The notes under the pieces: generated by a model
What the model was told of the DNA's origin: nothing
Database searches by the model: none
Seen by the model: the letters and a program-made list of their open reading frames with translations, nothing else
Program-made: the position numbers and the translations under genes
Source of the DNA: Candidatus Gottesmanbacteria bacterium GW2011_GWA2_43_14
Lineage (GTDB): Bacteria > Patescibacteriota > Microgenomatia > 2-02-FULL-39-11
Direction: 5' to 3'
Length of the DNA: 64,000 bases
Assembly: GCA_000999095.1 (NCBI GenBank)
Contig: LCFP01000001.1
Coordinates: 10,230-74,229 of the forward strand
Shown: positions 5,195 to 60,335 of the stretch, piece by piece
Layout: each line of letters starts with the position of its first letter
Position numbering within the stretch: position 1 is the first letter of the stretch

Positions 5195-7157
5195 ATTGGC
5201 TGGAAATAAATTCGAAACCGCAAAGTGGAGGATTTCCCAAAAGTTTAAATAAAAATTGAAGCGGCTTTTTACCTCCGAAAGAATCCTTAATCGCGGAAAC
5301 AGTTTTTTTACGCGTTTTTAATTTTTTTTTAGGGTATCCTTCATGAAGAAATTTCAGTTCCATATCCATGATGGTTTTCCCGAAATAATTAACAACGCAT
5401 CTACCCGATGAAGTAAATTTACCGATGGCAGTTGCTTCAATCCCCCGCTTCTCTATCAGTTTTTTAAAAGCTGACCATTTATTGGGAGGGACTGCCAAAG
5501 TCATGCGTTCCTGTGATTCCGAAATCCAAATTTCCCATGGCTTGAGTCCGTCGTATTTAAGGGGAACTTGATCAAGTTCTACCTGGCATCCCCCTGATTC
5601 CCTGGCCATTTCAGCAACTGAACAGGACAGACCGCCTGCCCCGTTATCGGTTATTGAATGATAAAGCTGCCTGTCACGGGCTTCTTTGACCAGGGCATCG
5701 CTGAATTTTTTTTGAATAATGGGGTTGCCGATCTGTACAGCCGTAACCGGACTGGCTGAATTCATAATCTCTGAAGAAAATGTAGCTCCGTGGATACCGT
5801 CTTTACCGACCCGGCCGCCGATCATAACAATATAGTCTCCTTTTTTGGCATTTTTTTGGGTTAAAATCCTGCCATTTGATTTTTTGGGAATAAGTCCGAT
5901 CGTTCCCACAAAGACCAGCGGTTTTCCCCGGAATTTTTCATCACAGTATAAAAATCCCAATGATGTTGGTATACCCGACTGATTACCTCCAGTATTGACT
6001 CCACTGACAATACCCTCAAGAATCCTTCTTGATGACAGCATTTTTTGAGTGAAATCAGTTCCTTTATAAAGAGGCTCATCGCGGTCCGGATCAGCGACGC
6101 AAAAACCGTAAAAATTGGCAATGGGCATTGCGCCCAGGCCGAAACCGATGGTATCGCGGTTAACGCCGACGATGCCGGTGACTGCTCCGCCGAATGGGTC
6201 CAAAGCCGAAGGGCTGTTATGAGTTTCTACCTTATGGGTTACCAGATAATCTCCGTCAAAATGGATGGCACCGGAATTATCAGTAAAGACTGAAGCTGCA
6301 AAATTCTTCTTTTTTTTTAGTATTTGGCTGGTTGCCCCTTTGATATAGGTTTTATACAAGCCGTCCTTGACTTCATCAATGGAACTGCTGAAGATAATAT
6401 GTTTGCAGTGTTCAGACCAGGTCTGAGCCAGTGACTCCAATTCAATATCAGTGGGAGCGCGCTTCTCCTGGTGGAAATATTTACGGATTTCCTTCAATGA
6501 AGGCAAATCCAAAGCCAAGGGGCCTCTTGGAAGGCTTTCCCTGTCTTTAATGCCTGTTTTACCGATGTCAGCTAAAACATTATCGTTAACATCCAAATCA
6601 ATGTCCAAAACGATGGAACTGGAGTTTAGTTTGACTTTAGGTACAAAAAAATCCATCCCCTCATCATTTATATATTCCGCTCTTCTTTTCAGAGAAGCAA
6701 TTTCTATCAGGGGATTATAAAAATTATGGCTTATTTCATTAATTTCGGCGGCAGTTAATACTCCCTCAATAAAAGTGATTTGCGACGAATAGACACCTTC
6801 TCCTTTTTTGAATTTCATTTTACGGAAATCTTCAATGGATTCACGGCTGGTTATGGCTATATTATCAGTTACTCCCGGCAGAAAATTTATTTCGAAAGCC
6901 CAATTAAAAAAAGGCAGCTGACGGTATATTTGTTTGCTGTTTTCCCAGGTTATATGGAAGGACTCAGTTATGGGGTTGGCGAACATCCCGGCAATTTCTT
7001 GCGGTTTTTTAAGGATTGCCGAGTCTATACTGTAGACATCGGCCAAAAAAACCTTTTTAATTTTTTTGGCAAAGCCAGACTCCTGAAGTTTTTTTTGGCG
7101 TTGAAAAGCCCGGCTGTCAGCAACTTTGGCGTAAACCTCAATCCGAGTTACCATCAA
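5154..7157 (-). CDS. purL: FGAM synthase II (PurL), N-terminal part, with a ~220-aa N-terminal extension that looks like tandem PurS-like domains (PurS-PurL fusion). It ends in a frameshift relative to the C-terminal fragment.
   Basis: The PurL motifs begin only near residue 220: ...SLAQTWSEHCKHIIF...THNSPSALDPFGGAVTGIVGVNRD...LLGNP..EFISSQYD. The preceding 220 aa (MVTRIEVYAKVADSRAFQRQ...) are PurS-like. No separate purS is present in the window. Confidence 0.7.
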   Translation of the reverse strand: MMVTRIEVYAKVADSRAFQRQKKLQESGFAKKIKKVFLADVYSIDSAILKKPQEIAGMFANPITESFHITWENSKQIYRQLPFFNWAFEINFLPGVTDNIAITSRESIEDFRKMKFKKGEGVYSSQITFIEGVLTAAEINEISHNFYNPLIEIASLKRRAEYINDEGMDFFVPKVKLNSSSIVLDIDLDVNDNVLADIGKTGIKDRESLPRGPLALDLPSLKEIRKYFHQEKRAPTDIELESLAQTWSEHCKHIIFSSSIDEVKDGLYKTYIKGATSQILKKKKNFAASVFTDNSGAIHFDGDYLVTHKVETHNSPSALDPFGGAVTGIVGVNRDTIGFGLGAMPIANFYGFCVADPDRDEPLYKGTDFTQKMLSSRRILEGIVSGVNTGGNQSGIPTSLGFLYCDEKFRGKPLVFVGTIGLIPKKSNGRILTQKNAKKGDYIVMIGGRVGKDGIHGATFSSEIMNSASPVTAVQIGNPIIQKKFSDALVKEARDRQLYHSITDNGAGGLSCSVAEMARESGGCQVELDQVPLKYDGLKPWEIWISESQERMTLAVPPNKWSAFKKLIEKRGIEATAIGKFTSSGRCVVNYFGKTIMDMELKFLHEGYPKKKLKTRKKTVSAIKDSFGGKKPLQFLFKLLGNPPLCGFEFISSQYDCYFLRTLSGLK

Positions 7158-38473: not shown

Positions 38474-40283
38474 TTATCTGACTTTGAAGGTAATTCTATT
38501 GTCTTTGTAGTCCGCGGTCAATTCAGAACCTGCTGTAGCTTTATTTTCGATCATCCTAAACGCCAGTTCATCAAGGATTTTATCCTGGATAATTCTTTTT
38601 AAAGGCCTGGCCCCGTAGACAGGATCAAAACATGTTTTAGCCAGATATGATTTTAAATCTTCACTGAAACTGATTTTTATATTCTGCCGATCAAGCTTTT
38701 GCCGTACTTTGCCAAGCTGAATTTCTGCGATTTGCCCTACCTGTCTTTCCGTCAGACGGTGGTAGACAACAATCTGGTCAAGCCTGTTCAAAAATTCGGG
38801 CCGGAAGCTTTTACGCAACAAGTTAAGTACGCTTTCCTGCAGCTTTGCTTCACTTTTACCTTCCAATTCCTGGATTATGTCGCTGCCGAGATTTGAGGTC
38901 ATGATCAAAGATAAGTCGGGCAATATTATGTGCCTCCTGGTATTCGCTCATGTCAATTCTGATCAATGCTTTTTCGCTATCAAAAAGATATTCAGCCAAA
39001 GCTTTGGCTCTTTCGGTCTTACCGACCCCTGTCGGCCCCAGAAAAAGGAAACTGCCGATAAGTCTGTCTTCTTCGGAAAGACCTGCCCTGTTCCGCCGGA
39101 TGGCCCTGGCAATTTTTATAAGGGCTTCATCCTGGCCAACAACTCTTTTTTGCAATACTTTATCCAGTTGTACCAGTTTTTCGGTCTCGGAAGATAATAG
39201 TTTGGTAACCGGAATACCGGTCCAGCGGGCAACCACTTTTGCCACATCTTCTTCTGTGACTTCTTTCCTGATCAGCTTATCCTGATCAGGTATGTTTTGC
39301 CAGTTGCTTTCCAGTTCACGCAGTTTCTTTTCGGTTTCAGGGATCCTGCCGTATTTAATTTCCGCGGCTTTATCAAGAAGTGCCTCCCTTTCAGCTCTTT
39401 CCAATTCCAGCCTCAACTGGTCCATTTTTACCCGTTCCGACTGGAGTTTTCCGATGATTTCCTTTTGCTGCTGCCACTTTCCTGCCAATGTCTTCTCCTC
39501 TTCCTTAAGCGTTTTGACTTCATCGTTTAAACGCTTTTTCCTGTCTGTCTCCTTTTTCTCTTTTTTCAAAGAAGCCAGCTCAATTTCCAGTTGGGTGATT
39601 TTTCTTTTCAGTTTGTCTAAAGCTTCCGGCAGGCTCTCTGTTTCGATTTTTAAAGCCGAGGCTGCCTCATCTATCAGATCAATCGCCTTATCGGGCAAGA
39701 AGCGGTCAGTCAGGTAACGGACCGACAAATTGACAGCCGCGATAAGGGCATCATCGGTTATGCGGATGCCGTGATGGATTTCATATTTTTCCTTTAAACC
39801 CCGCAGGATTGCCAAAGAATCTTCAGCCGCCGGTTCATTGACCATAATCGGTTGGAAACGTCTCTCCAAAGCAGCGTCCGTTTCGATATGCTGGCGGTAT
39901 TCGCGAAGCGTGGTAGCGCCGATGGCATGTAGGTCGCCGCGGGCCAGGGCCGGTTTTAAAATATTTGCCGCATCCATGGCTCCGGCAGCTGCTCCGGCGC
40001 CGACCAATGTATGCATTTCATCCATAAACAGAATGTATTTGCCTTCCGACTTCTCGATTTCCTTTAATAGCTTTTTTAACCTGTCCTCAAACTCGCCTCG
40101 GAAACTCGAGCCGGCGACGAGTGATGCCATATCCAGAGCCAAAACAGTCTTGTTTTTGAGGGTATCGGGCACGTCTTGCGAGACAATCCGCTGGGCCAGG
40201 CCTTCGACTATGGCTGTTTTGCCCACTCCCGGATCTCCGAGAAGGACAGGATTATTTTTGGTGCGGCGGGACAGGATTTGCAT
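38474..40283 (-). pseudogene. clpB: ClpB/Hsp104-family AAA+ disaggregase, degraded. It has no N-domain or canonical start, and an internal deletion plus frameshift removes the NBD2 Walker B and sensor-1.
   Basis: Two ORFs, 38856..40283 (NBD1, M-domain coiled coil, NBD2 Walker A) and 38474..38923 (NBD2 C-terminal part, IMTSNLGS...GARPLKR). The junction jumps from ...[13 protein letters not shown] straight to IMTSNLGS in another frame. Upstream, the frame is open to 40426 with no ATG/GTG/TTG. Confidence 0.6.
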
Positions 40284-41902: not shown

Positions 41903-43690
41903 CTAACTTATCAGCCAACTTTTAAACTTATTATAAGACATAGTATTCAAAATATCCTTTTTTTCAGCCCATCCCCTGCGGGCAACCGAAATGCCGTACT
42001 CCATCAAATCCATAGATTCCCTATCGTGGCTGTCCGTATCGATTATGAGTTTATTACCGTTTTCAATTGCCCTTTTTACCAAAACGTCAACTAAGTCCAG
42101 TCTTGAAGGGTGGGCGTTGATTTCTATGGCTTTGTCGTGATTTTTGGCAAAATCAAATATTCTCTGCCAGTCAATCTCATAGCCTTCCCTTTTACCGATC
42201 AACCGTCCTGAAGGATGGGCCAGAATTTTTGCCTTTGGGTGGGAAAAAGCAGCCAGCACTCTTTCAGTCATTTCTTTTTTCGGCATTTGGAAACTTGTAT
42301 GGACTGAAACTACCACGGCATCTACGAATTCAAATGCTTTTTCCGGTAGGGCTAATTTGCCGTCAGGAAGGATATCAACCTCTAACATGATAAATAATTT
42401 TACCCGAACATTTTTTTTGCTCAACATAATTTGCTCATAATCTTGCTTTCGCCGCTTCATAATAGCAATAACCTCTTTTTCAGTATGCTTGGAAACACTC
42501 GGATTATGTTCGCTTAAGCCTAAATATTCGTAACCCAAAGATTGTGCTTTATCTACCATTTCCCCCAACGGATTCTGCCCCAGGTCATGTGACGGTTCCA
42601 AATTATAATTGGAATGGACATGGACTTCCCCTTTTATGTCCGTCAGCTTTACCAGTTCTGGCAGCCGGTTATTAATGGCCGCTTCGATTTCTCCCAAGTC
42701 TTCCCTTAGTTCCGGAGGAATCCACGGCAGGCCCAGATATTTATAAAAATCCTCTTCACGCGGAAATTCAATTAGTTTTTGCTTTTTATCACTCTTTTTG
42801 AGTATCTTGATGCCGTATTCGGACAAGGACAATCCTTTTTTCAGGGCATATTCCCGCAGGTGGATATTGTGCTGCTTGCTGCCGGTAAAATACTGAAGCA
42901 TAGCACCGAAACTTCGGGGTTTCTGCACTCTGAGGTCTGCATGCTGGCCGTTACCCAGAATCAAACTGGCACCGCTTGGTCCAATCTCTATTATCTTGTC
43001 TTTTTTGGGATATTTCAGAAAGTATTCAAGTACTTTTTGAGGCTTGTCAGTTGCCACGGCCAAATCCACGTCACCGATGGTTGATACTTTCCGCCTCAAG
43101 CTTCCCAAAGGTTCCACCTGCACGGCTTCTTCAAATTTCTTTAAATAGGCAACCAGTTGTTTGGCCGTAGCATCAGCCACAGGCAAAGGCATTCTTTTTT
43201 TCTTGTTCTGGCCGAGCTTAAAGCGCTCCAGCGCTTCAATAATGTCAGCCTGGGATTTTGCCCCGAATCCCTCGAGTGGAGCGATTTTATCGCCCCTGGC
43301 AGCCTTGAGCAGCTTATCTATTGCATTTCCGGCATCGTTCAAATTGAATTCTACAGCTAACCTGTAGGCTTTTTTCGGTCCGAATCCTGAAACATCGAGA
43401 AGCGTAAGCATGCCTTCGGGCACTGCTTTAAAGAGCTCCTCATACTCCCTTACCTTGCCAGAGGTGAACAGTTGCTCCAAATGGCCGGAAATGACTGCTC
43501 CGATTCCCTGAATCTCGGATAATCTTTTATCCTGCCAAAGATCCCTGATTTCCAGATTACTGGTTTCGATGGCATCAGCTGCTTTCTCATAGGCAATGAT
43601 CCGGAATCGGTTGACGTTTTGGATAGTATAGACTGCCGCCACCTGGCGGAAAAGCCTGGCAATTTCTGCATTGGTAAATTTAACTGCCAT
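41903..43690 (-). CDS. polX: DNA polymerase X family with a C-terminal PHP phosphoesterase domain
   Basis: HhH, Pol-beta-like nucleotidyltransferase (GSLRRK..GDVDL) and PHP His motifs. Confidence 0.85.
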   Translation of the reverse strand: MAVKFTNAEIARLFRQVAAVYTIQNVNRFRIIAYEKAADAIETSNLEIRDLWQDKRLSEIQGIGAVISGHLEQLFTSGKVREYEELFKAVPEGMLTLLDVSGFGPKKAYRLAVEFNLNDAGNAIDKLLKAARGDKIAPLEGFGAKSQADIIEALERFKLGQNKKKRMPLPVADATAKQLVAYLKKFEEAVQVEPLGSLRRKVSTIGDVDLAVATDKPQKVLEYFLKYPKKDKIIEIGPSGASLILGNGQHADLRVQKPRSFGAMLQYFTGSKQHNIHLREYALKKGLSLSEYGIKILKKSDKKQKLIEFPREEDFYKYLGLPWIPPELREDLGEIEAAINNRLPELVKLTDIKGEVHVHSNYNLEPSHDLGQNPLGEMVDKAQSLGYEYLGLSEHNPSVSKHTEKEVIAIMKRRKQDYEQIMLSKKNVRVKLFIMLEVDILPDGKLALPEKAFEFVDAVVVSVHTSFQMPKKEMTERVLAAFSHPKAKILAHPSGRLIGKREGYEIDWQRIFDFAKNHDKAIEINAHPSRLDLVDVLVKRAIENGNKLIIDTDSHDRESMDLMEYGISVARRGWAEKKDILNTMSYNKFKSWLIS

Positions 43691-43718
43691 ATTTATCTAA
43701 ACTATACTATCACACGTA

Positions 43719-43747
43719 TTGACCCAGCCTCAATCATTTGATATCAT
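43719..43747 (+). promoter_or_regulatory. Putative sigma70 promoter for tRNA-Asp
   Basis: TTGACC, 17-nt spacer, TATCAT, about 22 nt upstream of the tRNA. Confidence 0.45.
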
Positions 43748-43769
43748 CGCTGAAAATAGAGCATTCTAT

Positions 43770-43842
43770 GGGCTCGTGGTGTAGCGGTTAACATGTCGCC
43801 CTGTCGAGGCGAAGATCGCCGGTTCGAATCCGGTCGGGCCCG
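43770..43842 (+). tRNA. tRNA-Asp (anticodon GTC)
   Basis: Cloverleaf hand-folded; anticodon arm TCGCC-CTGTCGA-GGCGA; T-loop GGTTCGAATCC; no encoded CCA. Confidence 0.8.
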
Positions 43843-43892
43843 CCGGTATACCCTTAAATCTCTGCCCGGAAAGGAGGAATCATTTCCTCTTT

Positions 43893-44453
43893 ATGTGGAA
43901 AAAAATTCGTAAAAAATTTGATTTTCCCGAATCATATATTTCCATTACTCTCGGCTTTTTAGTCGTCTTAGTTGCAGGCATTCTGACTTATAACTATTTC
44001 AGTAAAAACCAGATAACCTTTCGTCAGGAACAGCAAAAACAGGAGGAAGCACAAAAACAGCAGGAACAGGCTAAACTCATGGAACTTCCTGCCAAATATA
44101 CTGTCAAAGCTTCCGATAATCTTTGGAAAATCGCTGAAAAATACTACGGCTCAGGCTACAATTGGGTTTCTATTGCCAAAGCCAACAATGTTCTGGCAGC
44201 CAATCCGGATTATGTGGAAAGCGGTTGGGAACTGACGATTCCGGAGGCAGATGTCATCAGACCACCTGGAGATATTTCAGCAACAGCCAGTGTCCAACCC
44301 AAGGAATATACAGTACAAAAAGGCGATACGCTCTGGGGCATTGCTGAAAGGGAAGCAGGATCAGGTTACGATTGGACCAAAATTGCGCAGTACAACGGCA
44401 TGCAGAACCCTGATCTTATCTTTTCCGGCAACGTCATTAAAATCCCTCGTTAA
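43893..44453 (+). CDS. Membrane-anchored protein with two LysM peptidoglycan-binding domains
   Basis: Two repeats, YTVKASDNLWKIAEKYYG.. and YTVQKGDTLWGIAERE.., following an N-terminal TM helix. Confidence 0.7.
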   Translation: MWKKIRKKFDFPESYISITLGFLVVLVAGILTYNYFSKNQITFRQEQQKQEEAQKQQEQAKLMELPAKYTVKASDNLWKIAEKYYGSGYNWVSIAKANNVLAANPDYVESGWELTIPEADVIRPPGDISATASVQPKEYTVQKGDTLWGIAEREAGSGYDWTKIAQYNGMQNPDLIFSGNVIKIPR

Positions 44454-44531
44454 CAGGAGAAAGTCTTAAAACTTTAAAAATAGCCGCTTTCTGCGGATTG
44501 TTTTTATATCCTTTAACCAAATCAGCTTGTC

Positions 44532-44559
44532 TTGAAGATATTCCCCTTTTTGTTATACT
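44532..44559 (+). promoter_or_regulatory. Strong sigma70-like promoter for tRNA-Gly
   Basis: TTGAAG, 16-nt spacer, extended -10 TGtTATACT, 7-9 nt before the tRNA 5' end. Confidence 0.55.
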
Positions 44560-44568
44560 TTCAATCGC

Positions 44569-44643
44569 GCGGGCGTAGTTCAGCGGTAGAATGTCTCCTT
44601 CCCAAGGAGAAGGTCGTGGGTTCAAATCCCATCGCCCGCTCCA
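44569..44643 (+). tRNA. tRNA-Gly (anticodon CCC), CCA encoded
   Basis: GCGGGCGTAGTTCAGCGGTAGAA...; anticodon arm TCTCC-TTCCCAA-GGAGA; T-loop GGTTCAAATCC. Confidence 0.85.
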
Positions 44644-44820
44644 TACGGTAATGATTTAGGGTTTTTACAAAATTGCTTCGAGAAATCTAGATTTCCCCGA
44701 GTTCGAGCCATAAAATTCACAATAATTGCGTTAGCCTGGAAAATTAGAATACGGGTAACGGGAATCGAACCATCACTAACTATAGCAGTCATGATGATTG
44801 TCTGCTAAAATCAGGTTGTC

Positions 44821-45975
44821 ATGAACAACCAATTAACAGCCACTCATCACACACTCGATTTCAATTTGCTCCCGCCCGATAAATTCGCTCAAATTGGCCA
44901 CTGGCTGGCCGAGGATACAGGCGAATACAGGACTGTTGACTACTACGAGGGCTCCGGCGACAAGGGCAGAGATGTTATTGGTATTACCCACGATGAGGAT
45001 CTGGACTATTTCCAATGTAAAAAATACAAGGATATTACTTTCGGCGTTCTCAAGACAGAGCTGGATAAAATTGCCGGTTATATTAAAACTGGGGAGATTG
45101 ACCGCCCCAGAAGGATTTGCTTTGTGATTTCCTCTCCAGCGTCACCCGACGCAAGAGACAAAGCTAAAGCCTATGCTCAGAGCGTTGATCTACCAACGCC
45201 TGATTTTTGGGGTCCGGTAGTTCTTGATAAGAAGGTTAAGACTAATAATCAAGCCCTTAAAAACTTTTTCAATATCTCTGAGGAAGAAGAACACTTACCT
45301 CAAATCGATGTGGATGGGTTAATCGCTGGCAGCAATCAAGAAACAAGATTCACCATAATTAACACCGGTGATGTGCCAGCAATTGAGTGTAGTTGGGAGA
45401 TAAAAGGATTTGCGTGGGGAAGCTATCCTGGCCAACCAAAAAATTTTACTTTAGCACCACAGGAGAAAAAGGAGTTGAGAATTGCAATGGAGCATGACTT
45501 TATGAAGAAGAATCAGATCAGAGAGCTGCGACTGCATTTTGAATTTAGGAACGGCAAAGGTAGCTGGTTTTTCTCTGAAAGGTTGTTCAAGATTCAACTT
45601 GTTCCAAGCCAAGCATTTTACAGAATCCACCCAGAGCCAGGAGATTATATCGCCGTGCAACCATTGACTAAGTTCACGATTGACGAGATTGAATCTCGGC
45701 CACCCACAGGGCTTAATGTTACAACCTCGGTCAAATATACCTTCCAAAAGGAAACAAGATACCTTGAGATACAAGTTTCTAGGACGTTGCAGGAGGGTAT
45801 ATGGAGATTTAGCACTGACGAGCTTAACTATGCACTCAAGGAACTTGCCGAGAGAAAGATCTTCCAGATGATAAGGACAGGCGATTTCGAGGATAAGTTT
45901 GTCGTCAACAGTTACTTGAAGCCTACGCAAGAGACCGGCTTTGAAGCGTATAAAGAGTTGAGGGATTCCATCTAA
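44821..45975 (+). CDS. Mrr-cat (PD-(D/E)xK restriction-endonuclease-like) domain protein with an ~250-aa uncharacterised C-terminal region
   Basis: FAQIGHWLAEDTGEYRTV...GSGDKGRDVIGI...FQCKKYKDIT matches the Mrr_cat pattern (GDGGIDG...QCKRY). The C-terminus has no recognisable motif beyond a possible beta-sandwich (TIINTGDVPAIE). Confidence 0.6.
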   Translation: MNNQLTATHHTLDFNLLPPDKFAQIGHWLAEDTGEYRTVDYYEGSGDKGRDVIGITHDEDLDYFQCKKYKDITFGVLKTELDKIAGYIKTGEIDRPRRICFVISSPASPDARDKAKAYAQSVDLPTPDFWGPVVLDKKVKTNNQALKNFFNISEEEEHLPQIDVDGLIAGSNQETRFTIINTGDVPAIECSWEIKGFAWGSYPGQPKNFTLAPQEKKELRIAMEHDFMKKNQIRELRLHFEFRNGKGSWFFSERLFKIQLVPSQAFYRIHPEPGDYIAVQPLTKFTIDEIESRPPTGLNVTTSVKYTFQKETRYLEIQVSRTLQEGIWRFSTDELNYALKELAERKIFQMIRTGDFEDKFVVNSYLKPTQETGFEAYKELRDSI

Positions 45976-46122
45976 AAAGCGACTTCTGTGGCTAAGATGG
46001 ATCACTCGCGTGCCATCAATTCTCTAAAAGTAAGATACCTTCACCACAGAGATCATTCGGTAGTCGTAGTATATCAATTTGGCTCGACTTTTTCTCCCCA
46101 AAGTTATAAAATGTAGATACAT

Positions 46123-46845
46123 ATGTGGACTAAGCAGGACATTATTAAAGAGCTTCAAAGATACGCTAAAGAGATTGGCAAAACTCCAAGTCAAAAAGTA
46201 TTTTTCGACAACACCGAGGTTGGAATATATGATCGGATGAGATTTTGGCCCAACTATGGTGAGCTTGTGCGCGAAGCAGGATTAACTCCTAATGAGTTTG
46301 ATAAAACTAAATACAATCACGATCAACTATGTCGTCTATTTATTCGCATGGTTCGTGATGGGGGTAAGTGGCCAACCAGAGGCATTTTAGATGTTAAACA
46401 TCACTCTGACCTCAGCTTTCCAGATTCATCAACTTTTTATAAAAAACTTGGTTTGACTAGTGAATTGGCAAAAACAATCCTAAAATTTGTTGGTGATAAA
46501 CGTGGATATAAAGATATAGTAGATATTTGTAATATAGTGATTCGAGAAAACGAAGATATAAATTTTCCGGCAGAAGAAGGTGTGGTTCCGGGTTACATAT
46601 ATTTAGGTAAACAGAACGGAAGCTATAAAATAGGTAAATCGAAAAATCCAAATCGTCGTCGTGAAGATATTACACTTTTAGGATCTGAACCATTTGAGTT
46701 AGTACACGAGATAAAAACAGATGATATGAACGGTGTTGAAAAGTATTGGCATGAAAGATTTAAGTCAAGGCATAAAAGAGGTGAGTGGTTTAATTTGACT
46801 AGAACAGATATTAGTGCATTTAAGCAATGGAAGAAAATTGCTTAA
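46123..46845 (+). CDS. T5orf172 / MUG113 (GIY-YIG superfamily) domain protein with an unknown N-terminal domain
   Basis: C-terminus GYIYLGKQNGSYKIGKSKNPNRRREDI...HEIKTDDMNGVEKYWHERFKSRHKRGEWFNL is the T5orf172 signature. Confidence 0.6.
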   Translation: MWTKQDIIKELQRYAKEIGKTPSQKVFFDNTEVGIYDRMRFWPNYGELVREAGLTPNEFDKTKYNHDQLCRLFIRMVRDGGKWPTRGILDVKHHSDLSFPDSSTFYKKLGLTSELAKTILKFVGDKRGYKDIVDICNIVIRENEDINFPAEEGVVPGYIYLGKQNGSYKIGKSKNPNRRREDITLLGSEPFELVHEIKTDDMNGVEKYWHERFKSRHKRGEWFNLTRTDISAFKQWKKIA

Positions 46846-47389
46846 TTTGCATATTATCGCTAGCTCTACTTTCGCCTCTTCAGAAAACTACCTAAAACCT
46901 CCTGAAATAAACATAAGTCAACAGTCTTGAGGTGGTTTTTAAATTCGGTCAGTTGTACAATTAATTCTCGAGTAATGGAAGACCGGAGTATGATTTTGAT
47001 AGTAGTAGGAAACGTCATATCAGACTGGCTTAGAAGATATGATTTTATATGGTCATCCAGACTAGGCAGGTTCGAGCTAAGTACGGTCACCAGCTCCAGA
47101 CAAATTCCTGAAAATGAAAAGCTTATCTATTTTTCAAAGACTTGAATCATCGGACACAATTACTTTTCCCCTCTTCTCTTGTTTGGATTAAGTGTTTTTT
47201 TCGATTATGGGCTGAGCAGTACGCTTTCACTCATTTGGGCAATACATATCGCCGGTGACAGAACGTTTGGTCTGGGTCTAAAGCTTCTGAAGGGCTTAAA
47301 ACACACTTACCTGGGAAAAATCTGATCTTTGAGCAGGATGTCATCGGAGATTGGTTCGACAACGGTTGTATTATAATCAGCTTTAACAT

Positions 47390-47602
47390 ATGGCTGACAT
47401 CGGAAAGCTATTAATTACTCTGGGTATTGTCTTGGTTTTGCTGGGTTTTTTCTTCACTTTTTCCGTCAAGATTCCTTTTATTGGCAAATTGCCCGGAGAC
47501 ATACTCATTAAAAAAGACGGCTTTACCTTTTATTTTCCCCTGACCACTTCTATTATCATCAGCCTTCTTGTATCTTTAATTCTTAAGTTTTTCCAAAAAT
47601 AA
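47390..47602 (+). CDS. Small 2-TM membrane protein (DUF2905-like)
   Basis: 70 aa, hydrophobic, ending KFFQK. Confidence 0.4.
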   Translation: MADIGKLLITLGIVLVLLGFFFTFSVKIPFIGKLPGDILIKKDGFTFYFPLTTSIIISLLVSLILKFFQK

Positions 47603-47618
47603 AAGTATAATCAGGAGT

Positions 47619-48461
47619 GTGAATTACAAGATACGCACAGCTGTCAGGCATGAAATTTCAACTGTCATCGGCTGGGCGAAAGCCGAAGGATGGAATCCGG
47701 GCATTTATGATGCCGATACTTTTTTTTCATCTTTTCCCGACGGTTTTTTAGTCGGCCTTCTCGACGGTAAACCGGTTTCATTCATTTCCGCAGTAAGTTA
47801 CGGGAATGCTTTCGGCTTTATCGGTTTGTATATTGTTTCCGGGCCATACCGCGGTCGCGGATACGGGCTTAAAATATGGAACCGGGCAATTGCCAAGTTA
47901 TCGGGCCGTAATGTCGGGCTTGACGGAGTTACTGAACAACAGAACAACTACAAAAAGTCGGGTTTCAGGCTGGCTTACAGGAATATCCGCTTTCAGGGAA
48001 ATAATTTGAACATGGAAATCGATGACGGACATATTCTGCCTCTTTCCCTCATTCCCATAAAACAGGTCAGCGCATATGATCATAAAATCTTTCCGGCCGA
48101 AAGACCGCTCTTTCTTAAAGCATGGTTGACACAACCCCAAAGCTTGGCTATAGGTTATGTTAAGAATGGCGCTTTGCAGGGATACGGCCTCATCCGCCCC
48201 TGCCAATCAGGCTTTAAGATCGGACCGCTGTTTGCGGAAACGGAGCCGGTCGCGGATAAATTATTGGCAAAACTGATGCAATATGCGCCGAACGACAAAC
48301 CGGTATTTCTGGATGTACCTGAAATAAACCGGCCGGCAGTTTTATTGGCCGGACGCTACAAGATGAAGCCTGTTTTTGAAACCGCACGTATGTACAGCCG
48401 AAACCAGCCAGATGTTCCCATACAAAAGGTCTTCGGCGTGACTTCTTTTGAATTCGGATGA
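47619..48461 (+). CDS. GNAT-family N-acetyltransferase with a YitH-like C-terminal domain
   Basis: GRGYGLKIWNRAI acetyl-CoA motif. Confidence 0.7.
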   Translation: MNYKIRTAVRHEISTVIGWAKAEGWNPGIYDADTFFSSFPDGFLVGLLDGKPVSFISAVSYGNAFGFIGLYIVSGPYRGRGYGLKIWNRAIAKLSGRNVGLDGVTEQQNNYKKSGFRLAYRNIRFQGNNLNMEIDDGHILPLSLIPIKQVSAYDHKIFPAERPLFLKAWLTQPQSLAIGYVKNGALQGYGLIRPCQSGFKIGPLFAETEPVADKLLAKLMQYAPNDKPVFLDVPEINRPAVLLAGRYKMKPVFETARMYSRNQPDVPIQKVFGVTSFEFG

Positions 48462-48482
48462 TCAATTTTCCTGCAATTCAAG

Positions 48483-49256
48483 TTATGCCGTCAGGGTAAA
48501 GTAAAAAGAGGATCCCTGACCTTCCCGGCTTTCAAACCAGATCCTGCCGCCGTGCCTTCTGACCATTTCCCGCGAAAGATAAAGCCCCAAGCCCAGGCTG
48601 GGATCGTCCTTTCTCCTGGTTTTGTCGATCTGGTAAAATTTTTCAAAGATTCTCTCATGATGTTCTTCTGGGATGCCGAATCCCTCATCTTTTATTTTAA
48701 ACAGCAAATTTTTCTCATTTTTACGGTAATGAAGCAGGATCGGGCTTGCCGGACGCGAAAACTTAACAGAGTTTAGCAATAAATTAAAAATTACCTGCCT
48801 GATTTGTCTTTGGTCTCCGTAAACAAGTTCTTCGGTTTGACCCTTGACGGTAATCCTGCGGATTCCGCTTGCTGCCTCGATTTCCTCCGCCGTTTCACGC
48901 ACTAAACGGTTCAGATTGAATAGTACTTTTTTCGGTTTATAACCCCCGTTATCAATTATCGACAGATTAAGAAGCTCATCCATTAATCTGGACAAAGAGG
49001 ATATCTGCAAATTCATCTTGATGGTAATTTTTGAAGCCAAAACATCCTGTTTTTTCATCAGGTAGCGGTAGAGGATTTCTCCGTATCCGGTCATTGAGGT
49101 CAGGGGAGTCTTCAGTTCATGGCTGAGAATGCTTAAAAATTCGCTTTTGCTTTCCTCCAGTTGCCGGCGTTGCCGGAACAAAATTCTGGCAGAAACCAGA
49201 TAATAAACCAGACAGAAAATATTAACCAGCAATAAGAGACTTAGAATTTGGCCCAT
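48483..49256 (-). CDS. Sensor histidine kinase (1 TM, HisKA plus HATPase_c). No response regulator is adjacent.
   Basis: SHELKTPLTSMTGYGEIL H-box and GLGLYLSREMV...G-box. Confidence 0.75.
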   Translation of the reverse strand: MGQILSLLLLVNIFCLVYYLVSARILFRQRRQLEESKSEFLSILSHELKTPLTSMTGYGEILYRYLMKKQDVLASKITIKMNLQISSLSRLMDELLNLSIIDNGGYKPKKVLFNLNRLVRETAEEIEAASGIRRITVKGQTEELVYGDQRQIRQVIFNLLLNSVKFSRPASPILLHYRKNEKNLLFKIKDEGFGIPEEHHERIFEKFYQIDKTRRKDDPSLGLGLYLSREMVRRHGGRIWFESREGQGSSFYFTLTA

Positions 49257-57159: not shown

Positions 57160-57959
57160 CTGATAAATACCTTCCGCAACCGGATAAAAAATGCGTACAT
57201 TTGTATACTCCCTTGATACATACCGTAGATGACAGCTGCCCGGAATCCGTTATAGCCGTCGAGATAACCCTGTTTCCGGTAAAAACAGCGAAAAAAATGC
57301 CTGGCTGTTTCCAAAATAATTCCAGAAAATAGTGTAACTGTCGTTCTTTCGGATTTCACTATATCGTTTCCTTCGATATTTATATAATTTTTCAAACGGA
57401 AAAATGCCAACCAGGAGCTGTATTTGCTTCTTAGAGAACTGTGGAGGATTTCAACATCTTTTATAAAGCGGGTTTTCTTCTCCGGGATTTGTATCTGTGC
57501 ATGGATTACACCGGAATATTTATAGCCTCTGTGATTGCGAAAGAGTCTTAATTGCCAATCAGGGTAAAAGTAACCATACTTCAGATAAGTCTTATCATTT
57601 ATATAATTCCGCCTTGGGAACCAATATCCATCAACATTCTTATTCTTTACCAATTCCCTAATCCTCTTCTCCGCCCCCTCCGTCAACTCCTCATCAGCAT
57701 CCAATACAAGAATCCAATTTAAATTACTTTTAGATAAAGCATAATTTCTTTGAGATGAAAAATCATTAAATTTTTTAAAATATAATTTATTCTTAAATAA
57801 TTTTAATTTTTCAATAGTAGAATCATCGGAAAATGAATCTAATATAATTAAGTTATCATAATATGTTTTATTTACTATATTTAAAATATTTTTCTCTTCG
57901 TTATGAACTATTATTATCAAATCAATATTTTTTTCATCTTTGTTAAAGGCTATTGACAT
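57156..57959 (-). CDS. Family-2 glycosyltransferase. The first ~100 codons are very AT-rich and the rest has normal GC.
   Basis: IIIVHNEE...LDADEEL GT-A motifs; composition shifts abruptly near 57660. Confidence 0.7.
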   Translation of the reverse strand: MSIAFNKDEKNIDLIIIVHNEEKNILNIVNKTYYDNLIILDSFSDDSTIEKLKLFKNKLYFKKFNDFSSQRNYALSKSNLNWILVLDADEELTEGAEKRIRELVKNKNVDGYWFPRRNYINDKTYLKYGYFYPDWQLRLFRNHRGYKYSGVIHAQIQIPEKKTRFIKDVEILHSSLRSKYSSWLAFFRLKNYINIEGNDIVKSERTTVTLFSGIILETARHFFRCFYRKQGYLDGYNGFRAAVIYGMYQGSIQMYAFFIRLRKVFIR

Positions 57960-57998
57960 TATAGTAAAAAATGGATAATTTTAAATTATTCTACTTAA

Positions 57999-60335
57999 AT
58001 GATTATTATTACAATAATCATTTTATTTATATCTCTATTATACCCAACTTATGTTGCGTCTAATTTTACTCCTGAAAATTCTCCAATTTTAACAGTTGGT
58101 TCAACATGGGATAGATCTTATGTGTATGGACCATCTGTTTTATTCGATAATAATATATATAAACTTTGGTATACTGGGTCAAATTCATATAAAGTACAGA
58201 TAGGTTATTCTTCATCAAATACATATTTAAATTTTTCACCAAATCCGTCCAGCCCATCTATTCCTTATTCTGCTTTATATTCAACTGATTATGGGGTAGA
58301 ACATCCTACTGTTATTAAAATTACTGATAATCAATATAAAATGTGGTTTCATAGAGCAAGAACAAATTTTAACACTTTTGATCTCTATTATGCAGAATCG
58401 TCTGATGGTATATTTTGGGATAATTTTACTAAATTACTTTTTACTAACGAAACAACTTGGGATCAATATAGTCAAACAGCTCCATCAGTTATCTATGATT
58501 CAAATGAAAATAAATATAAAATGTGGTATTCAGGATCAGGTTATTTTAACAGCGATCCTCAACGTTGGAGAATAGGGTATGCTTTTTCTAGTGATGGGAT
58601 TACTTGGACAAAAAATGCAAACCCTGTTTTAGATGCTGACCAAGAATGGGAAGATAAGAATAATTTAGCGGGTGTATCTAATCCTCATGTTCTAAAAATA
58701 TCTAATAAATATCATCTTTGGTATCATAGTAAAGGAAAAATTGGGTACGCACTATCTAATGATGAAATAACATGGACTAAACATTCTGAACCAATACTAT
58801 CTCCTTTAGTAGGTACATATTACAGTAAATCAGTATGGGATCCCTATGTAGTATATGATAATAATCAATATTACTTATTTTTTTCAGCAATTGGGAGTTC
58901 TGTTAATTTAGGAGTTGCTTCTGATATTTCATTACCAGATGTTATTATCCCTACTCAAACTCCGACACCGACGCTTACTCCGACACCGACTATTCCTAAA
59001 GACTCACCGATTGTCATTTTACCCGGACTGGGTGCTTCATGGAATACAAAAGATATGGTTTCCTGCGGGTTGTCCAGTTCTGCAAAATGGGTACAAACCC
59101 CTTATTATGCAAGTGTGTATGATCGTCTGTTCAAAACGTTAGAAAATAATGCCCATATGACAAGAGATAAAAATTTATTTATTTATTATTATGACTGGAG
59201 AAAACCGTTGGATGAACAAGTTATATTGTTCAGAAAATATCTTGATGATATATCCAAAAAAACAAACTCAAAGGTACGCCTGATTGGACACAGTATGGGT
59301 GGATTACTGATTAGGGGATATTTATCTGATTATCCTGGTGATGACCGTGTATACAAAGCTATGACCGTTGGTACTCCTCATACCGGTACTGTCTTAGCCT
59401 ACCCCTTATGGGCAAACGGCGATATCTGGTTTACTGAATTGGGAGTTAAAATTCCGATAACTCTTCTTTTAAACTACTGTAGATTAGTCAAAACAACATT
59501 AAATTTAACCGGTATCTCCAAGGGATTTGTAACAATTGATGTTCCGACATATAAACTGTTAAGCCAGAAAGAAACTATTCAATCCCTTGCTCCTTCAATC
59601 GAATCACTTCTGCCGGTATTTAATTATCTTCAAAAGAATGGCAATTTAATCGATTCGACTTCCCTCATATCACAAAATAATTGGCTGAAAAATCATTTAA
59701 TTGATAATAACCGCATAAAGATGATTACCGATACCATTTCAGGTAACAACAGAAATACTTTAAAAGTTCTTTCTGTGAAACCTCCGTCAAAAAAGGATTT
59801 AAAAAATAAAAATTGGGTTGACGGCGTACCTATTGCTAAAGAATTCGACAAACAGGGAGACGGAACAATCTTAAATTTGAGTAGTATTCTGCCGAATATA
59901 AATAATATGACTATTGAAGGAGATCATATTCAAATTATTTATTCGGATGAAGCATTAAATAAAATATTAGAATTTCTTGATCTTGAAGATACACCAATCT
60001 ATCAAAAAGAACCTGTACCGATTGCTGAAGCTGAAACTGCCATAGTATTAATGTCGGATAAGAATGCTGAAATCCGGGCAACAAATATGGATAAAAATAC
60101 TATAAACAGTCAGGAAAATCTGTTATCCCTTTTTAACCCTCAAACCGGAAATTATAAAATACAAATAAAAGGAGACCAAAACGATCAGACGGTTCTGCAA
60201 ACCGCCTTGCTTAACAAAGTGAGCGATACAGAGGTAGATACTTATTCCGTTAAACTCAAAAAGAATGTCTGGATGAATTATCTGCTTATATATACGCCGA
60301 ACAATCCCAATAAACTTGTTCTTGTTCCGTATTAA
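57999..60335 (+). CDS. Secreted/anchored multidomain protein: N-terminal beta-propeller-like repeats (glycoside-hydrolase/BNR-like), a PT-rich linker, and a C-terminal alpha/beta-hydrolase (lipase-like, GHSMGG)
   Basis: Repeated YK[LM]W[YF] blades; linker TQTPTPTLTPTPTIP; nucleophile elbow LIGHSMGGLL. N-terminal TM/signal. The 5' third is AT-rich. Confidence 0.5.
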   Translation: MIIITIIILFISLLYPTYVASNFTPENSPILTVGSTWDRSYVYGPSVLFDNNIYKLWYTGSNSYKVQIGYSSSNTYLNFSPNPSSPSIPYSALYSTDYGVEHPTVIKITDNQYKMWFHRARTNFNTFDLYYAESSDGIFWDNFTKLLFTNETTWDQYSQTAPSVIYDSNENKYKMWYSGSGYFNSDPQRWRIGYAFSSDGITWTKNANPVLDADQEWEDKNNLAGVSNPHVLKISNKYHLWYHSKGKIGYALSNDEITWTKHSEPILSPLVGTYYSKSVWDPYVVYDNNQYYLFFSAIGSSVNLGVASDISLPDVIIPTQTPTPTLTPTPTIPKDSPIVILPGLGASWNTKDMVSCGLSSSAKWVQTPYYASVYDRLFKTLENNAHMTRDKNLFIYYYDWRKPLDEQVILFRKYLDDISKKTNSKVRLIGHSMGGLLIRGYLSDYPGDDRVYKAMTVGTPHTGTVLAYPLWANGDIWFTELGVKIPITLLLNYCRLVKTTLNLTGISKGFVTIDVPTYKLLSQKETIQSLAPSIESLLPVFNYLQKNGNLIDSTSLISQNNWLKNHLIDNNRIKMITDTISGNNRNTLKVLSVKPPSKKDLKNKNWVDGVPIAKEFDKQGDGTILNLSSILPNINNMTIEGDHIQIIYSDEALNKILEFLDLEDTPIYQKEPVPIAEAETAIVLMSDKNAEIRATNMDKNTINSQENLLSLFNPQTGNYKIQIKGDQNDQTVLQTALLNKVSDTEVDTYSVKLKKNVWMNYLLIYTPNNPNKLVLVPY

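What the first reader, a model, noticed from the sequence alone, without database searches (positions are those of the whole stretch)
44644..47389. tRNA-Gly-adjacent low-GC islet with an Mrr-cat nuclease-domain protein and a T5orf172/GIY-YIG-like protein: candidate uncharacterised two-gene defence module
Immediately 3' of tRNA-Gly(CCC) the composition drops sharply. The islet encodes (i) a 384-aa protein whose N-terminus matches the Mrr catalytic PD-(D/E)xK fold (GSGDKGRDVIG...FQCKKY) fused to a ~250-aa C-terminal region with no motif I recognise, and (ii) a 240-aa protein with a C-terminal T5orf172/MUG113 domain (GYIYLG..YKIGKS...EWFNL) and an unknown N-terminal domain. Both domain families are enriched in defence islands but neither architecture is a named system to my knowledge. 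About 540 bp of non-coding DNA follows (46846-47389). tRNA-like debris at 44690-44710 and 44755-44780 (minus-strand GGGAATCGAACC = T-arm) suggests past site-specific insertion at tRNA genes.
Basis: partly seen in the sequence, partly recalled or inferred. Interest (0 to 1): 0.7.

Follow-up and report, generated by a model that had tools for sequence, protein, structure and literature searches.

The report
Two unlinked mobile nuclease genes
The stretch after tRNA-Gly is not a two-gene defence system but a variable insertion spot holding two unrelated, independently mobile genes: a solitary nuclease that looks like a one-protein immune sensor, and a selfish homing-endonuclease-like gene that was recently acquired horizontally.

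Summary
The ORFs, the domains and tRNA-Gly(CCC) are real, but several details are wrong. Gene 1 has background GC (0.437 vs 0.434), and only the gene 2 unit is low (0.354-0.368). The "non-coding" 540 bp holds a conserved 74-aa gene on the minus strand and a DUF4260 pseudogene remnant. Gene 2's "unknown" N-terminus is a homing-endonuclease-associated HTH-like repeat.

The two-gene module is refuted. None of 17 gene 1 loci holds a gene 2 relative, and none of 81 gene 2 loci holds a gene 1 relative. Syntenic relatives carry gene 1 alone (L010) or gene 2 alone (L012) after tRNA-Gly(CCC).

Gene 2 lies in a sharply bounded 1.1-kb unit (45975-47099). It is 84% identical to a copy in a WWE3 genome whose flanking proteins are only 26-40% identical. 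Its family has 469 loci across phyla and is enriched next to tRNA genes. I read it as a free-standing T5orf172/GIY-YIG homing-endonuclease-like element.

Gene 1 is an Mrr-type nuclease tethered to an uncharacterised ~230-aa module. In other proteins that module sits behind TIR, AbiEii or CBASS-type HNH heads. This suggests a solitary sensor-effector immune protein, but that is inferred, not shown.

Interest is moderate to low.

The parts
44569..44643 (+). tRNA-Gly(CCC). It is the left anchor of the variable site.
   Evidence: ARAGORN; Rfam tRNA 70.9 bits. The same tRNA precedes gene 1 in L010/L011 and the gene 2 unit in L012.
44636..44780 (+). Element A, a conserved ~145-bp trailer that follows tRNA-Gly genes in CPR genomes. 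It contains T-arm-like words (GTTCGAGCC, GGGAATCGAACC) but is not a detectable tRNA.
   Evidence: nhmmer finds copies in the window, L008, L010/11, L012 (two), L013 (two), L015 and L096, with E from 1e-8 to 1e-36. Alignment. No consensus fold, -0.18 kcal/mol. No tRNA hit at E<=10.
44821..45975 (+). Gene 1 (UV73_C0001G0051, 384 aa). It is a solitary Mrr-type PD-(D/E)xK nuclease fused to an uncharacterised C-terminal module.
   Evidence: ORF. The family of 22 proteins is conserved over its full length, with mean column identity 71%. AF2 model pLDDT 78.
44875..45210 (+). Gene 1 nuclease domain (aa 19-130). D47, K48, R50, D51, D62, Q65, C66 and K67 are invariant (D...QxK motif).
45289..45972 (+). 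Gene 1 C-terminal module (aa ~157-384). It has an Ig-like all-beta region (162-320) plus helices (321-383) and is joined to the nuclease by a disordered linker (aa 133-156). It is the candidate sensor or regulatory module.
   Evidence: AF2. Only generic Ig-like fold matches. No Pfam or PADLOC model covers it. The same module occurs behind AbiEii, TIR, CBASS-type HNH and NTP_transf_8 heads in other proteins.
45975..47099 (+). The horizontally mobile 'gene 2 unit' (element B + gene 2 + small ORF). It begins at gene 1's stop codon.
   Evidence: blastn: 82% to L012 5846-6975, 74% to L013 1423-2531, 84% to L008 9869-10804, with similarity ending sharply at both ends. GC is 0.368 against 0.434.
45978..46079 (+). 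Element B, a conserved ~103-nt element with a 10-11-bp long-range stem, an internal hairpin and an invariant GATCATTCGG tail. It is a candidate structured RNA (or DNA site) of unknown function.
   Evidence: There are nine copies: before gene 2 in five loci, inverted in L015, and solo in L012, L013 and L015. 17 pairs are 88.9% paired against 27-43% for slid controls; 5 pairs have compensatory changes; 1 of 500 shuffles reaches the covariation score. No Rfam match at E<=10.
46123..46845 (+). Gene 2 (UV73_C0001G0052, 240 aa). It has two HTH-like 'homing endonuclease associated' repeats (aa 3-54 and 66-123) followed by a T5orf172/MUG113 GIY-YIG nuclease (aa 157-234).
46866..47090 (-). Small conserved ORF (74 aa) of unknown function, convergent with gene 2.
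   Evidence: tblastn: L012 72%, L013 69%, L076 44%, L015 30% identity, with in-frame indels. No Pfam hit.
47179..47325 (+). C-terminal remnant of a DUF4260 gene (pseudogene). It is probably resident DNA truncated by insertion.
   Evidence: Pfam DUF4260 E 4.2e-9, profile positions 68-113 of 113.

Best explanation
The region is a variable insertion spot downstream of tRNA-Gly(CCC). It has collected two unrelated cargo genes that move and function independently, plus debris.

(1) GENE 1 is a stand-alone, single-chain nuclease.
- It has an Mrr-type PD-(D/E)xK DNase head with an intact D...QxK motif. A flexible linker tethers it to a ~230-aa Ig-like plus helical module.
- That module recurs elsewhere behind other immune 'killer' heads (TIR, AbiEii nucleotidyltransferase, CBASS-type HNH).
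- The nuclease head recurs on STAND/TPR and other sensor bodies.
- I therefore infer that gene 1 is a one-protein sensor-effector immune (abortive-infection-type) protein. The C-module would sense an invader cue or control oligomerisation, and so license DNA cleavage by the head.

(2) GENE 2 sits in a 1.1-kb selfish unit (element B + gene 2 + a small convergent ORF).
- Its protein has two HTH-like DNA-binding repeats plus a T5orf172/GIY-YIG nuclease, which is the architecture of free-standing homing endonucleases.
- I infer that it cuts a conserved sequence, often beside tRNA genes, in genomes that lack it, and is then copied in during repair.
- That would explain its near-identical copy at the equivalent site of a distant CPR genome.

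(3) A truncated DUF4260 gene marks the damage done by insertion.

SHOWN: domain content, catalytic-residue conservation, lack of linkage, presence/absence polymorphism at the same backbone site, horizontal transfer of gene 2, and the domain-swap pattern.
INFERRED: the defence role and trigger of gene 1, and the cleavage and homing activity of gene 2.
For: INDEPENDENCE
- There are no cross-hits in 17 gene 1 loci or 81 gene 2 loci, and no conserved neighbour for either gene.
- L010/L011 have LysM, tRNA-Gly(ccc), element A, then gene 1 (77% identical), followed by an unrelated 143-aa gene.
- L012 has PolX, tRNA-Asp, LysM, tRNA-Gly(ccc), element A, a 169-aa ORF, then the gene 2 unit and later tRNA-Thr, with no gene 1.

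GENE 2 MOBILITY
- Unit boundaries are sharp at 45975 and 47099.
- Window vs L012 identity is 84% for gene 2, against 40% for PolX and 26% for LysM.
- GC is in the 4th percentile.
- There are 469 confirmed loci across CPR, Actinomycetota, Planctomycetota, Nitrospira and others.
- 11 of 81 loci have a tRNA gene within 200 bp, against about 2-3.4 expected (P between 5e-6 and 6e-4).
- In L015 gene 2 lies on the other side of element B, so it moves relative to its own neighbours.
- Architecture.
- T5orf172 is described as a GIY-YIG subfamily of homing endonucleases with terminal DNA-binding repeats (PMC10448857).

GENE 1
- Catalytic residues are invariant and the C-module is as conserved as the head.
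- The fold of the head matches restriction and defence cleavage domains, including Avs4 and Cap4.
- The profile search gave 920 hits that split into N-module-only and C-module-only proteins.
- C-module partners are AbiEii (E 3.5e-65), TIR (PDC-S66, E 6e-15) and CBASS-type HNH (E 2.5e-29).
- N-module partners are NB-ARC/AAA+TPR, TIR and HTH-TPR-PIN.
- Neighbourhoods include AbiEii, Gp49/HTH toxin-antitoxin, DUF3800, NYN, PLD and phage-like genes, but also housekeeping genes.
- Precedent for nuclease plus sensor single proteins and for Mrr-like effectors: the Avs2/Upx preprint 10.64898/2026.04.30.721860.
Against: - There is no experimental evidence for any activity.
- The C-module has no informative structural or sequence relative, so 'sensor' is a guess from architecture alone.
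- Some gene 1 neighbourhoods are plain housekeeping (L094, L095, L009).
- The gene 1 family is small and almost all from metagenomes. Several contigs are short, so absence of gene 2 is informative only for immediate neighbours.
- No clean empty site (tRNA-Gly directly followed by DUF4260/DUF2905/GNAT) could be found. The order and mechanism of the insertions are therefore not established.
- Gene 2's target site is unknown, and no intron, intein or integrase is present.
- T5orf172 proteins can be domesticated as regulators or defence components, and gene 2 has a weak PADLOC PDC-S57 hit (E 0.001).
- Gene 1 is also more conserved than its LysM flank between the window and L010 (77% vs 47%). This could reflect transfer or simply stronger constraint.
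Confidence: 0.6

Rival explanations
1. Gene 1 and gene 2 act together as one new two-gene defence system, for example one nuclease as sensor and the other as effector, inserted as a unit at tRNA-Gly.
For: The genes are adjacent and on the same strand, 147 bp apart, with no predicted terminator between them. Both domain families occur in defence contexts (LmuA and PDC-S57 hits).
Against: There is no co-occurrence in 98 loci. The family sizes are unequal. Each gene occurs alone at the same backbone site. The gene 2 unit boundary falls exactly at gene 1's stop codon, and gene 2 has a different GC and its own promoter-like site at 46084-46112.
Confidence: 0.04
2. Gene 1 is a type IV (modification-dependent) or other stand-alone restriction endonuclease. 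In this reading the C-terminal module binds modified or foreign DNA and the Mrr-type head cleaves it directly, with no abortive-infection logic.
For: The head is Mrr_cat. The closest folds include the cleavage domains of the modification-dependent enzymes AspBHI and MspJI, and of FokI and N.BspD6I. The gene is solitary with no methyltransferase next to it.
Against: The domain order is reversed relative to Mrr, and there is no Mrr_N, SRA or winged-helix reader. The same C-module is coupled to TIR and AbiEii heads, which do not act by cutting target DNA. That fits a signal-sensing module better than a DNA reader.
Confidence: 0.15
3. The whole 44.6-47.4 kb stretch is the decayed remnant of a single integrative element (an island or prophage that entered at tRNA-Gly and lost its integrase). 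The two genes would be left-over cargo of that one element.
For: It is adjacent to a tRNA. In L012 element A is duplicated on both sides of the insert (5128-5270 and 6970-7114). The right end of the unit weakly resembles a tRNA 3' half. A DUF4260 gene is truncated. One gene 1 homologue lies in a phage-like region (L006).
Against: There is no integrase or recombinase, and no direct repeat of the tRNA end in the window. The tRNA-half resemblance is not detected by Rfam at E<=10. Gene 1 has host-like GC while gene 2 does not. The two genes have different distributions and different partners at the same site.
Confidence: 0.12
4. Gene 2 is not a selfish homing endonuclease. It would instead be a domesticated T5orf172 protein, either a sequence-specific regulator or a stand-alone defence nuclease working with the small convergent ORF and element B (for example a toxin-antitoxin-like or RNA-guided arrangement).
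For: T5orf172 relatives have been co-opted in phage-satellite conflicts. There is a weak PDC-S57 hit. The small ORF and B travel with gene 2 in CPR copies. The family is strongly conserved with intact catalytic residues across phyla.
Against: B and the small ORF accompany only the closest CPR copies (about 6 of 81 loci), so they are not core partners. No neighbour is conserved across 81 loci. The patchy cross-phylum distribution and 84% vs 26-40% identity discordance are typical of selfish spread.
Confidence: 0.2

Closest known systems
Free-standing T5orf172 / GIY-YIG homing endonuclease genes of phages (e.g. ICP1 and T5-like phages; PMC10448857)
   Same: Gene 2 has a C-terminal T5orf172/MUG113 domain with the conserved GIY...YIG, Arg and Glu positions. 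It has terminal DNA-binding repeats, a patchy horizontally transferred distribution, and it inserts beside highly conserved genes.
   Different: It is chromosomal in CPR and many other bacteria rather than in phages, with only 6 distant viral relatives. Its DNA-binding part is HNH_repeat/HTH-like rather than the CapR/DUF723 zinc fingers. It lies next to tRNA genes rather than phage essential genes. Its homing activity is untested.
Mrr-like nuclease effector domains of Avs (Avs2/Avs4), Lamassu LmuA and CBASS Cap4
   Different: Gene 1 has no STAND NTPase, no SMC partner (LmuB) and no SAVED domain. The body is a small, unannotated Ig-like plus helical module.
Upx and similar single-protein 'sensor + PD-(D/E)xK nuclease' defence proteins
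   Same: They share the logic: one polypeptide with an unannotated sensor plus a nuclease effector and no NTPase.
   Different: Upx is about 1,200 aa with a C-terminal nuclease and a large sensor. Gene 1 is 384 aa with an N-terminal nuclease. There is no PADLOC Upx hit at E<=1. This is an analogy only.
Type IV restriction enzyme Mrr / MspJI-AspBHI family
   Same: Both have the Mrr_cat catalytic domain with a D...QxK-type motif, and both are solitary genes without a methyltransferase.
   Different: Gene 1 has no Mrr_N or SRA-like reader, and the domain order is reversed. Its C-module is shared with TIR and AbiEii proteins.

Membership tests
Lamassu (LmuA/LmuB[/LmuC]) | LmuA-type effector protein matching over its whole length | tested here: not met
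   The PADLOC LmuA model matches only aa 20-117 of gene 1, to profile positions 21-124 of 336. That is the nuclease head only.
Lamassu (LmuA/LmuB[/LmuC]) | Adjacent SMC-like LmuB partner | tested here: not met
   There is no LmuB hit among 60 window ORFs. The neighbours are a tRNA and gene 2. No SMC gene lies next to the homologues.
Mrr-type type IV restriction endonuclease | Mrr_cat catalytic domain with conserved D...(Q/E)xK residues | tested here: met
   Pfam Mrr_cat scores 28.5 bits against a cut-off of 21. D51, D62, Q65 and K67 are invariant in 21 sequences.
Mrr-type type IV restriction endonuclease | N-terminal winged-helix (Mrr_N) or other modified-DNA reader preceding the nuclease | tested here: not met
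   The nuclease is N-terminal, there is no Mrr_N or SRA hit, and the C-module is Ig-like plus helical.
Avs / STAND immune NTPases | Central STAND NTPase domain | tested here: not met
   There is no P-loop, NB-ARC or AAA hit in gene 1. Only distant relatives of the head carry one.
T5orf172 / MUG113 (GIY-YIG superfamily) | Pfam domain above threshold and conserved GIY-YIG-type catalytic residues | tested here: met
   MUG113 scores 48.1 bits (cut-off 22.3) and T5orf172 scores 34.8 bits (cut-off 20). G157, Y168, G171, R179 and E206 are invariant in 34 sequences.
T5orf172 / MUG113 (GIY-YIG superfamily) | GIY-YIG alpha/beta fold | tested here: met
Free-standing homing endonuclease gene | DNA-binding module fused to the nuclease | tested here: met
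   HNH_repeat scores 27.6 bits (cut-off 26) for aa 1-61. The two helical repeats resemble HTH domains.
Free-standing homing endonuclease gene | Presence/absence polymorphism at a homologous site, and identity discordant with the flanks | tested here: met
   The gene is absent after tRNA-Gly(ccc) in L010/L011 and present in L012. Identity is 84% against 40% and 26% for flanking proteins.
Free-standing homing endonuclease gene | Site-specific cleavage of the endonuclease-free allele, followed by gene conversion | not testable with these tools
   This requires biochemistry or genetics. The target site is unknown.
tRNA-integrated genomic island / prophage | Integrase (tyrosine or serine recombinase) within the island | tested here: not met
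   There is no such ORF between 44644 and 47389.
tRNA-integrated genomic island / prophage | Direct repeat of the tRNA 3' end (attL/attR) bounding the island | tested here: not met
   No repeat of the tRNA end was found in 43700-48500. The weak resemblance at 47065-47099 is not supported by Rfam. Only L012 shows a duplicated element A.
Known RNA families (for element B) | Match to an Rfam covariance model | tested here: not met
   No Rfam hit overlaps 45978-46079, even at E<=10.

The most novel reading that the evidence does not exclude
Gene 1's C-terminal Ig-like plus helical module may define a previously undescribed family of compact single-protein immune sensors with interchangeable killer heads (Mrr nuclease, HNH nuclease, TIR, AbiEii nucleotidyltransferase). 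Gene 1 would then be a functional stand-alone anti-phage or anti-plasmid system in CPR bacteria, a group with few recognised defences. Separately, element B could be a new structured RNA associated with mobile genes in CPR genomes.
Probability: 0.3. Interest if true: 0.6.

Novelty: new variant of a known kind. Interest (0 to 1): 0.35.

Why it matters
As a two-gene system it does not matter, because it is not one.

What remains of value is a concrete, testable candidate. A 384-aa nuclease carries a C-terminal module that is not covered by Pfam or PADLOC and that swaps between four classes of immune effector. If it proves to be a sensor, it adds a compact new defence family and a handle on immunity in CPR bacteria.

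The gene 2 unit is a clean natural example of a T5orf172 homing-type gene spreading between distant CPR lineages at tRNA-linked sites. It is useful for understanding gene flow in these reduced genomes, but it is not surprising.

Tried and rejected
1. **Empty-site test.** I searched with the right-flank GNAT protein. Its closest relatives are only 55-57% identical, and two CPR contigs showed no synteny. No clean empty site was recovered.
2. **att repeats.** No direct repeat of the tRNA 3' end was found. A resemblance of 47065-47099 to a tRNA 3' half appeared in MAFFT alignments, but Rfam does not support it, so I treat it as weak.
3. **Element A as a degenerate tRNA or structured RNA.** ARAGORN and Rfam were negative, and there is no consensus fold.
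4. **Element B or the unit as a group I intron or other Rfam family.** There were no hits at E<=10. The 3' part of the unit is protein-coding on the minus strand.
5. **Element B in phages.** Three exact 16-mer matches in IMG/VR do not extend into B (best nhmmer E 0.006 over 27 nt). They are chance matches.
6. **Gene 1 on viral contigs.** None was found.
7. **AbiEii neighbour in L001 sharing gene 1's C-module.** It does not by BLASTP.
8. **Sequence search of both families against PDB.** Nothing was found.
9. **Full-length Foldseek of gene 1 against PDB.** There was no significant match.
10. **Complete known defence system anywhere in the window.** None was found. The PADLOC hits are scattered, and those located fall on a generic AAA-type ATPase at 38856-40280.
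11. **Promoter and terminator scans.** They are not above shuffled expectation, so I use them only as hints.


Full report
**SOURCE AND ANATOMY**

The exact proteins are in public databases as hypothetical proteins UV73_C0001G0051 and UV73_C0001G0052 of Candidatus Gottesmanbacteria bacterium GW2011_GWA2_4x, a CPR (Microgenomates) genome. The local order is:

| Coordinates | Strand | Feature |
|---|---|---|
| 41903-43690 | - | PolX |
| 43770-43844 | + | tRNA-Asp |
| 43893-44453 | + | LysM protein |
| 44569-44643 | + | tRNA-Gly(ccc) |
| 44821-45975 | + | gene 1 |
| 46123-46845 | + | gene 2 |
| 47390-47602 | + | DUF2905 |
| 47619-48461 | + | GNAT |

**CHECKING THE OBSERVATION**

The ORFs and the two domain calls are correct. 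Mrr_cat covers aa 19-123 of gene 1, and MUG113/T5orf172 covers aa 157-234 of gene 2. Four details are wrong.

1. The composition does not drop right after the tRNA. Gene 1 has GC 0.437 against a window mean of 0.434 (48th percentile). Only gene 2 (0.354, 4th percentile) and its surrounding unit (0.368) are low. A much stronger low-GC tract lies at about 57-60 kb.
2. The '540 bp of non-coding DNA' contains two features. One is a 74-aa minus-strand ORF (46866-47090), conserved as protein at 72, 69, 44 and 30% identity in four other loci. The other is the last 46 profile positions of a DUF4260 gene (47179-47325, E 4e-9).
4. The 'tRNA debris' is not detectable as tRNA. It belongs to a ~145-bp block, element A, that follows tRNA-Gly(ccc or tcc) genes in several CPR genomes. 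It has no conserved fold.

No att-like repeat of the tRNA end is present.

**THE LINKAGE TEST**

Gene 1 belongs to a small family: 22 proteins at 50% identity or more, all about 384 aa. Gene 2 belongs to a large one: more than 116 proteins, and 469 confirmed loci among GTDB species representatives from many phyla.

I collected 17 loci with gene 1 homologues (about 11 distinct contexts, 122 kb) and 81 loci with gene 2 homologues (822 kb). tblastn at E<=10 finds no gene 2 relative in any gene 1 locus, and no gene 1 relative in any gene 2 locus. All-against-all clustering of neighbouring ORFs finds no conserved partner for either gene. Gene 1's neighbours vary:

| Locus | Neighbours of the gene 1 homologue |
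|---|---|
| L001 | Xre-type HTH and AbiEii |
| L003 | DUF3800 |
| L006 | portal, terminase and ParB-methylase (phage-like) |
| L007 | NYN |
| L092 | Gp49/HTH toxin-antitoxin pair |
| L009 | CysS |
| L094 | YchF |
| L095 | UPF0182 |

PADLOC finds no LmuB and no complete known system among all 60 window ORFs.

**THE SAME BACKBONE SITE WITH DIFFERENT CARGO**

L010/L011 come from a relative whose gene 1 homologue is 77% identical. They have LysM, tRNA-Gly(ccc), element A and gene 1, followed by an unrelated 143-aa gene and no gene 2.

L012 is a complete WWE3 genome. It has PolX, tRNA-Asp, LysM, tRNA-Gly(ccc), element A, a 169-aa ORF, then the gene 2 unit and later tRNA-Thr(cgt). That is the same backbone as the window, with no gene 1.

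L096 has a gene 1 homologue beside element A and tRNA-Gly(tcc), in convergent orientation.

So the trailer of tRNA-Gly is a recurrent landing zone, and the two genes arrive there separately.

**THE GENE 2 UNIT**

blastn defines a 1,125-bp segment (45975-47099) shared with L012 (82%), L013 (74%) and L008 (84%). It starts at gene 1's stop codon and ends sharply. Between the window and L012, gene 2 is 84% identical and the small ORF 72% identical. The flanking PolX and LysM proteins are only 40% and 26% identical. This is a clear sign of recent horizontal transfer.

Gene 2 relatives are enriched next to tRNA genes. Eleven of 81 loci have a tRNA within 200 bp, usually upstream, against 2-3.4 expected (P between 5e-6 and 6e-4).

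The catalytic-type residues G157, Y168, G171, R179 and E206 are invariant across 34 diverse members. The literature describes T5orf172 as a GIY-YIG subfamily of homing endonucleases, built from terminal DNA-binding repeats plus the nuclease domain (PMC10448857).

In L015 the small ORF and element B are directly adjacent and gene 2 lies outside them. So gene 2 has moved relative even to its usual companions.

I conclude that gene 2 is a free-standing homing-endonuclease-like selfish gene. Cleavage and homing are inferred, not shown.

**GENE 1**

The whole protein is strongly conserved, with mean column identity 71%. D47, K48, R50, D51, D62, Q65, C66 and K67 are invariant. This is the Mrr-type D...QxK variant of PD-(D/E)xK; the naming of the motif rests on my knowledge of the Mrr literature.

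A profile search of 1.84 billion representatives gave 920 hits, which separate into two classes:

- **Head only** (profile positions 4-155). The head is fused to NB-ARC/AAA+TPR, TIR or HTH-TPR-PIN bodies.
- **C-module only** (profile positions ~173-384). It follows other heads:
  - AbiEii toxin (E 3.5e-65);
  - TIR (PDC-S66, E 6e-15);
  - a CBASS-type HNH effector nuclease (E 2.5e-29);
  - NTP_transf_8;
  - several unannotated heads.

No Pfam or PADLOC model covers the C-module.

This effector-swap pattern, the solitary distribution and the partly defence-like neighbourhoods make a single-protein sensor-effector immune function the most likely reading. It is analogous in logic to nuclease-bearing Avs proteins and to Upx. 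Gene 1 is not a member of those families: it has no NTPase, and its size and domain order differ.

A type IV restriction function is the main rival. It is disfavoured because TIR and AbiEii heads share the module.

**ELEMENTS A AND B**

Element B (45978-46079) is about 103 nt long, and nine copies were found. It precedes gene 2 in five CPR loci, is inverted in L015, and stands alone in L012, L013 and L015, twice next to Bro-N genes.

A consensus fold has a 10-bp long-range stem, a hairpin and a 3-bp stem. It is 88.9% paired against 27-43% for slid controls. Five pairs have compensatory changes, and only 1 of 500 shuffles reaches the observed covariation score. Some copies carry an extra inserted hairpin. 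No Rfam family matches.

With nine related copies this is suggestive, not proven, and the strand is undetermined.

Element A is conserved as sequence only.

**VERDICT**

The 'two-gene defence module' interpretation fails its own refutation test. The best explanation is a tRNA-Gly-linked variable spot carrying (i) a solitary Mrr-nuclease protein with an uncharacterised, effector-swapping C-terminal module, and (ii) a recently transferred T5orf172/GIY-YIG homing-type unit with a small companion ORF and a possibly structured element, next to a truncated DUF4260 gene.

Gene 2 is a new member of a known kind. Gene 1 is a new variant of a known kind of single-protein nuclease immune factor, and its function is unproven. 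Overall interest is moderate to low (0.35).

Noticed in passing
window 45978-46079 (also L012 5848-5957 and 7699-7796; L013 1426-1527 and 3870-3990; L015 1105-1227(-) and 4482-4644; L076 1157-1266; L008 9868-9969): Element B is a ~103-nt conserved element with a long-range stem, an internal hairpin, an invariant GATCATTCGG tail and some compensatory changes. It is not in Rfam. It is a candidate new structured RNA (or DNA site) linked to mobile genes in CPR genomes.
   Followed up: partly
window 44636-44780 (also L008 7425-7568, L010 821-965, L012 5128-5270 and 6970-7114, L013 344-487 and 2835-2939, L015 3059-3133(-), L096 2303-2374(-)): Element A is a ~145-bp sequence block conserved downstream of tRNA-Gly(ccc) and tRNA-Gly(tcc) genes in different CPR lineages. 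In L012 it is duplicated on both sides of the insert. It has no conserved fold and its function is unknown. It is a possible recombination hotspot.
   Followed up: partly
window 46866-47090 (-): A 74-aa ORF convergent with gene 2 is conserved as protein in L012, L013, L076 and L015 (72-30% identity). It has no Pfam match and its function is unknown.
   Followed up: partly
window 47179-47325 (+): This is the C-terminal remnant of a DUF4260 membrane-protein gene (profile positions 68-113 of 113). It is a pseudogene, probably truncated by the insertions.
   Followed up: yes
window about 57200-59800: This is the lowest-GC stretch of the window (700-bp windows down to 0.23, against a mean of 0.434). 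It overlaps the start of a 778-aa ORF (57999-60332) and is a much stronger compositional anomaly than the finding itself.
   Followed up: no
L096 283-2283 (+): One continuous 666-aa ORF joins an HTH_17 + DUF5677 N-terminal part in frame to the gene 1-like part. It may be a fusion protein, or two genes without an intervening stop codon.
   Followed up: no
L013 2591-2842; 12 of 81 gene 2 loci: Small stand-alone GIY-YIG proteins (about 80-110 aa, Pfam GIY-YIG E 3e-14) lie within a few kb of gene 2 homologues in 12 loci. Bro-N genes sit beside solo copies of element B in L013 and L015.
   Followed up: no
81 gene 2 loci (L008, L012-L091): Gene 2 relatives are enriched right next to tRNA genes: 11 of 81 within 200 bp, with Gln and Ser the most frequent tRNAs among the nearest 25 loci, and the tRNA mostly upstream.
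   Followed up: partly
window 38856-40280 (-) and an unlocated smaller ORF: A 474-aa AAA-type ATPase gives weak PADLOC hits (DolB, TRIP13, IetA, mad8), probably generic ATPase similarity. A stronger mad3 hit (E 3.5e-33) comes from one of the window's ORFs other than the ten re-scanned; I did not identify which.
   Followed up: partly
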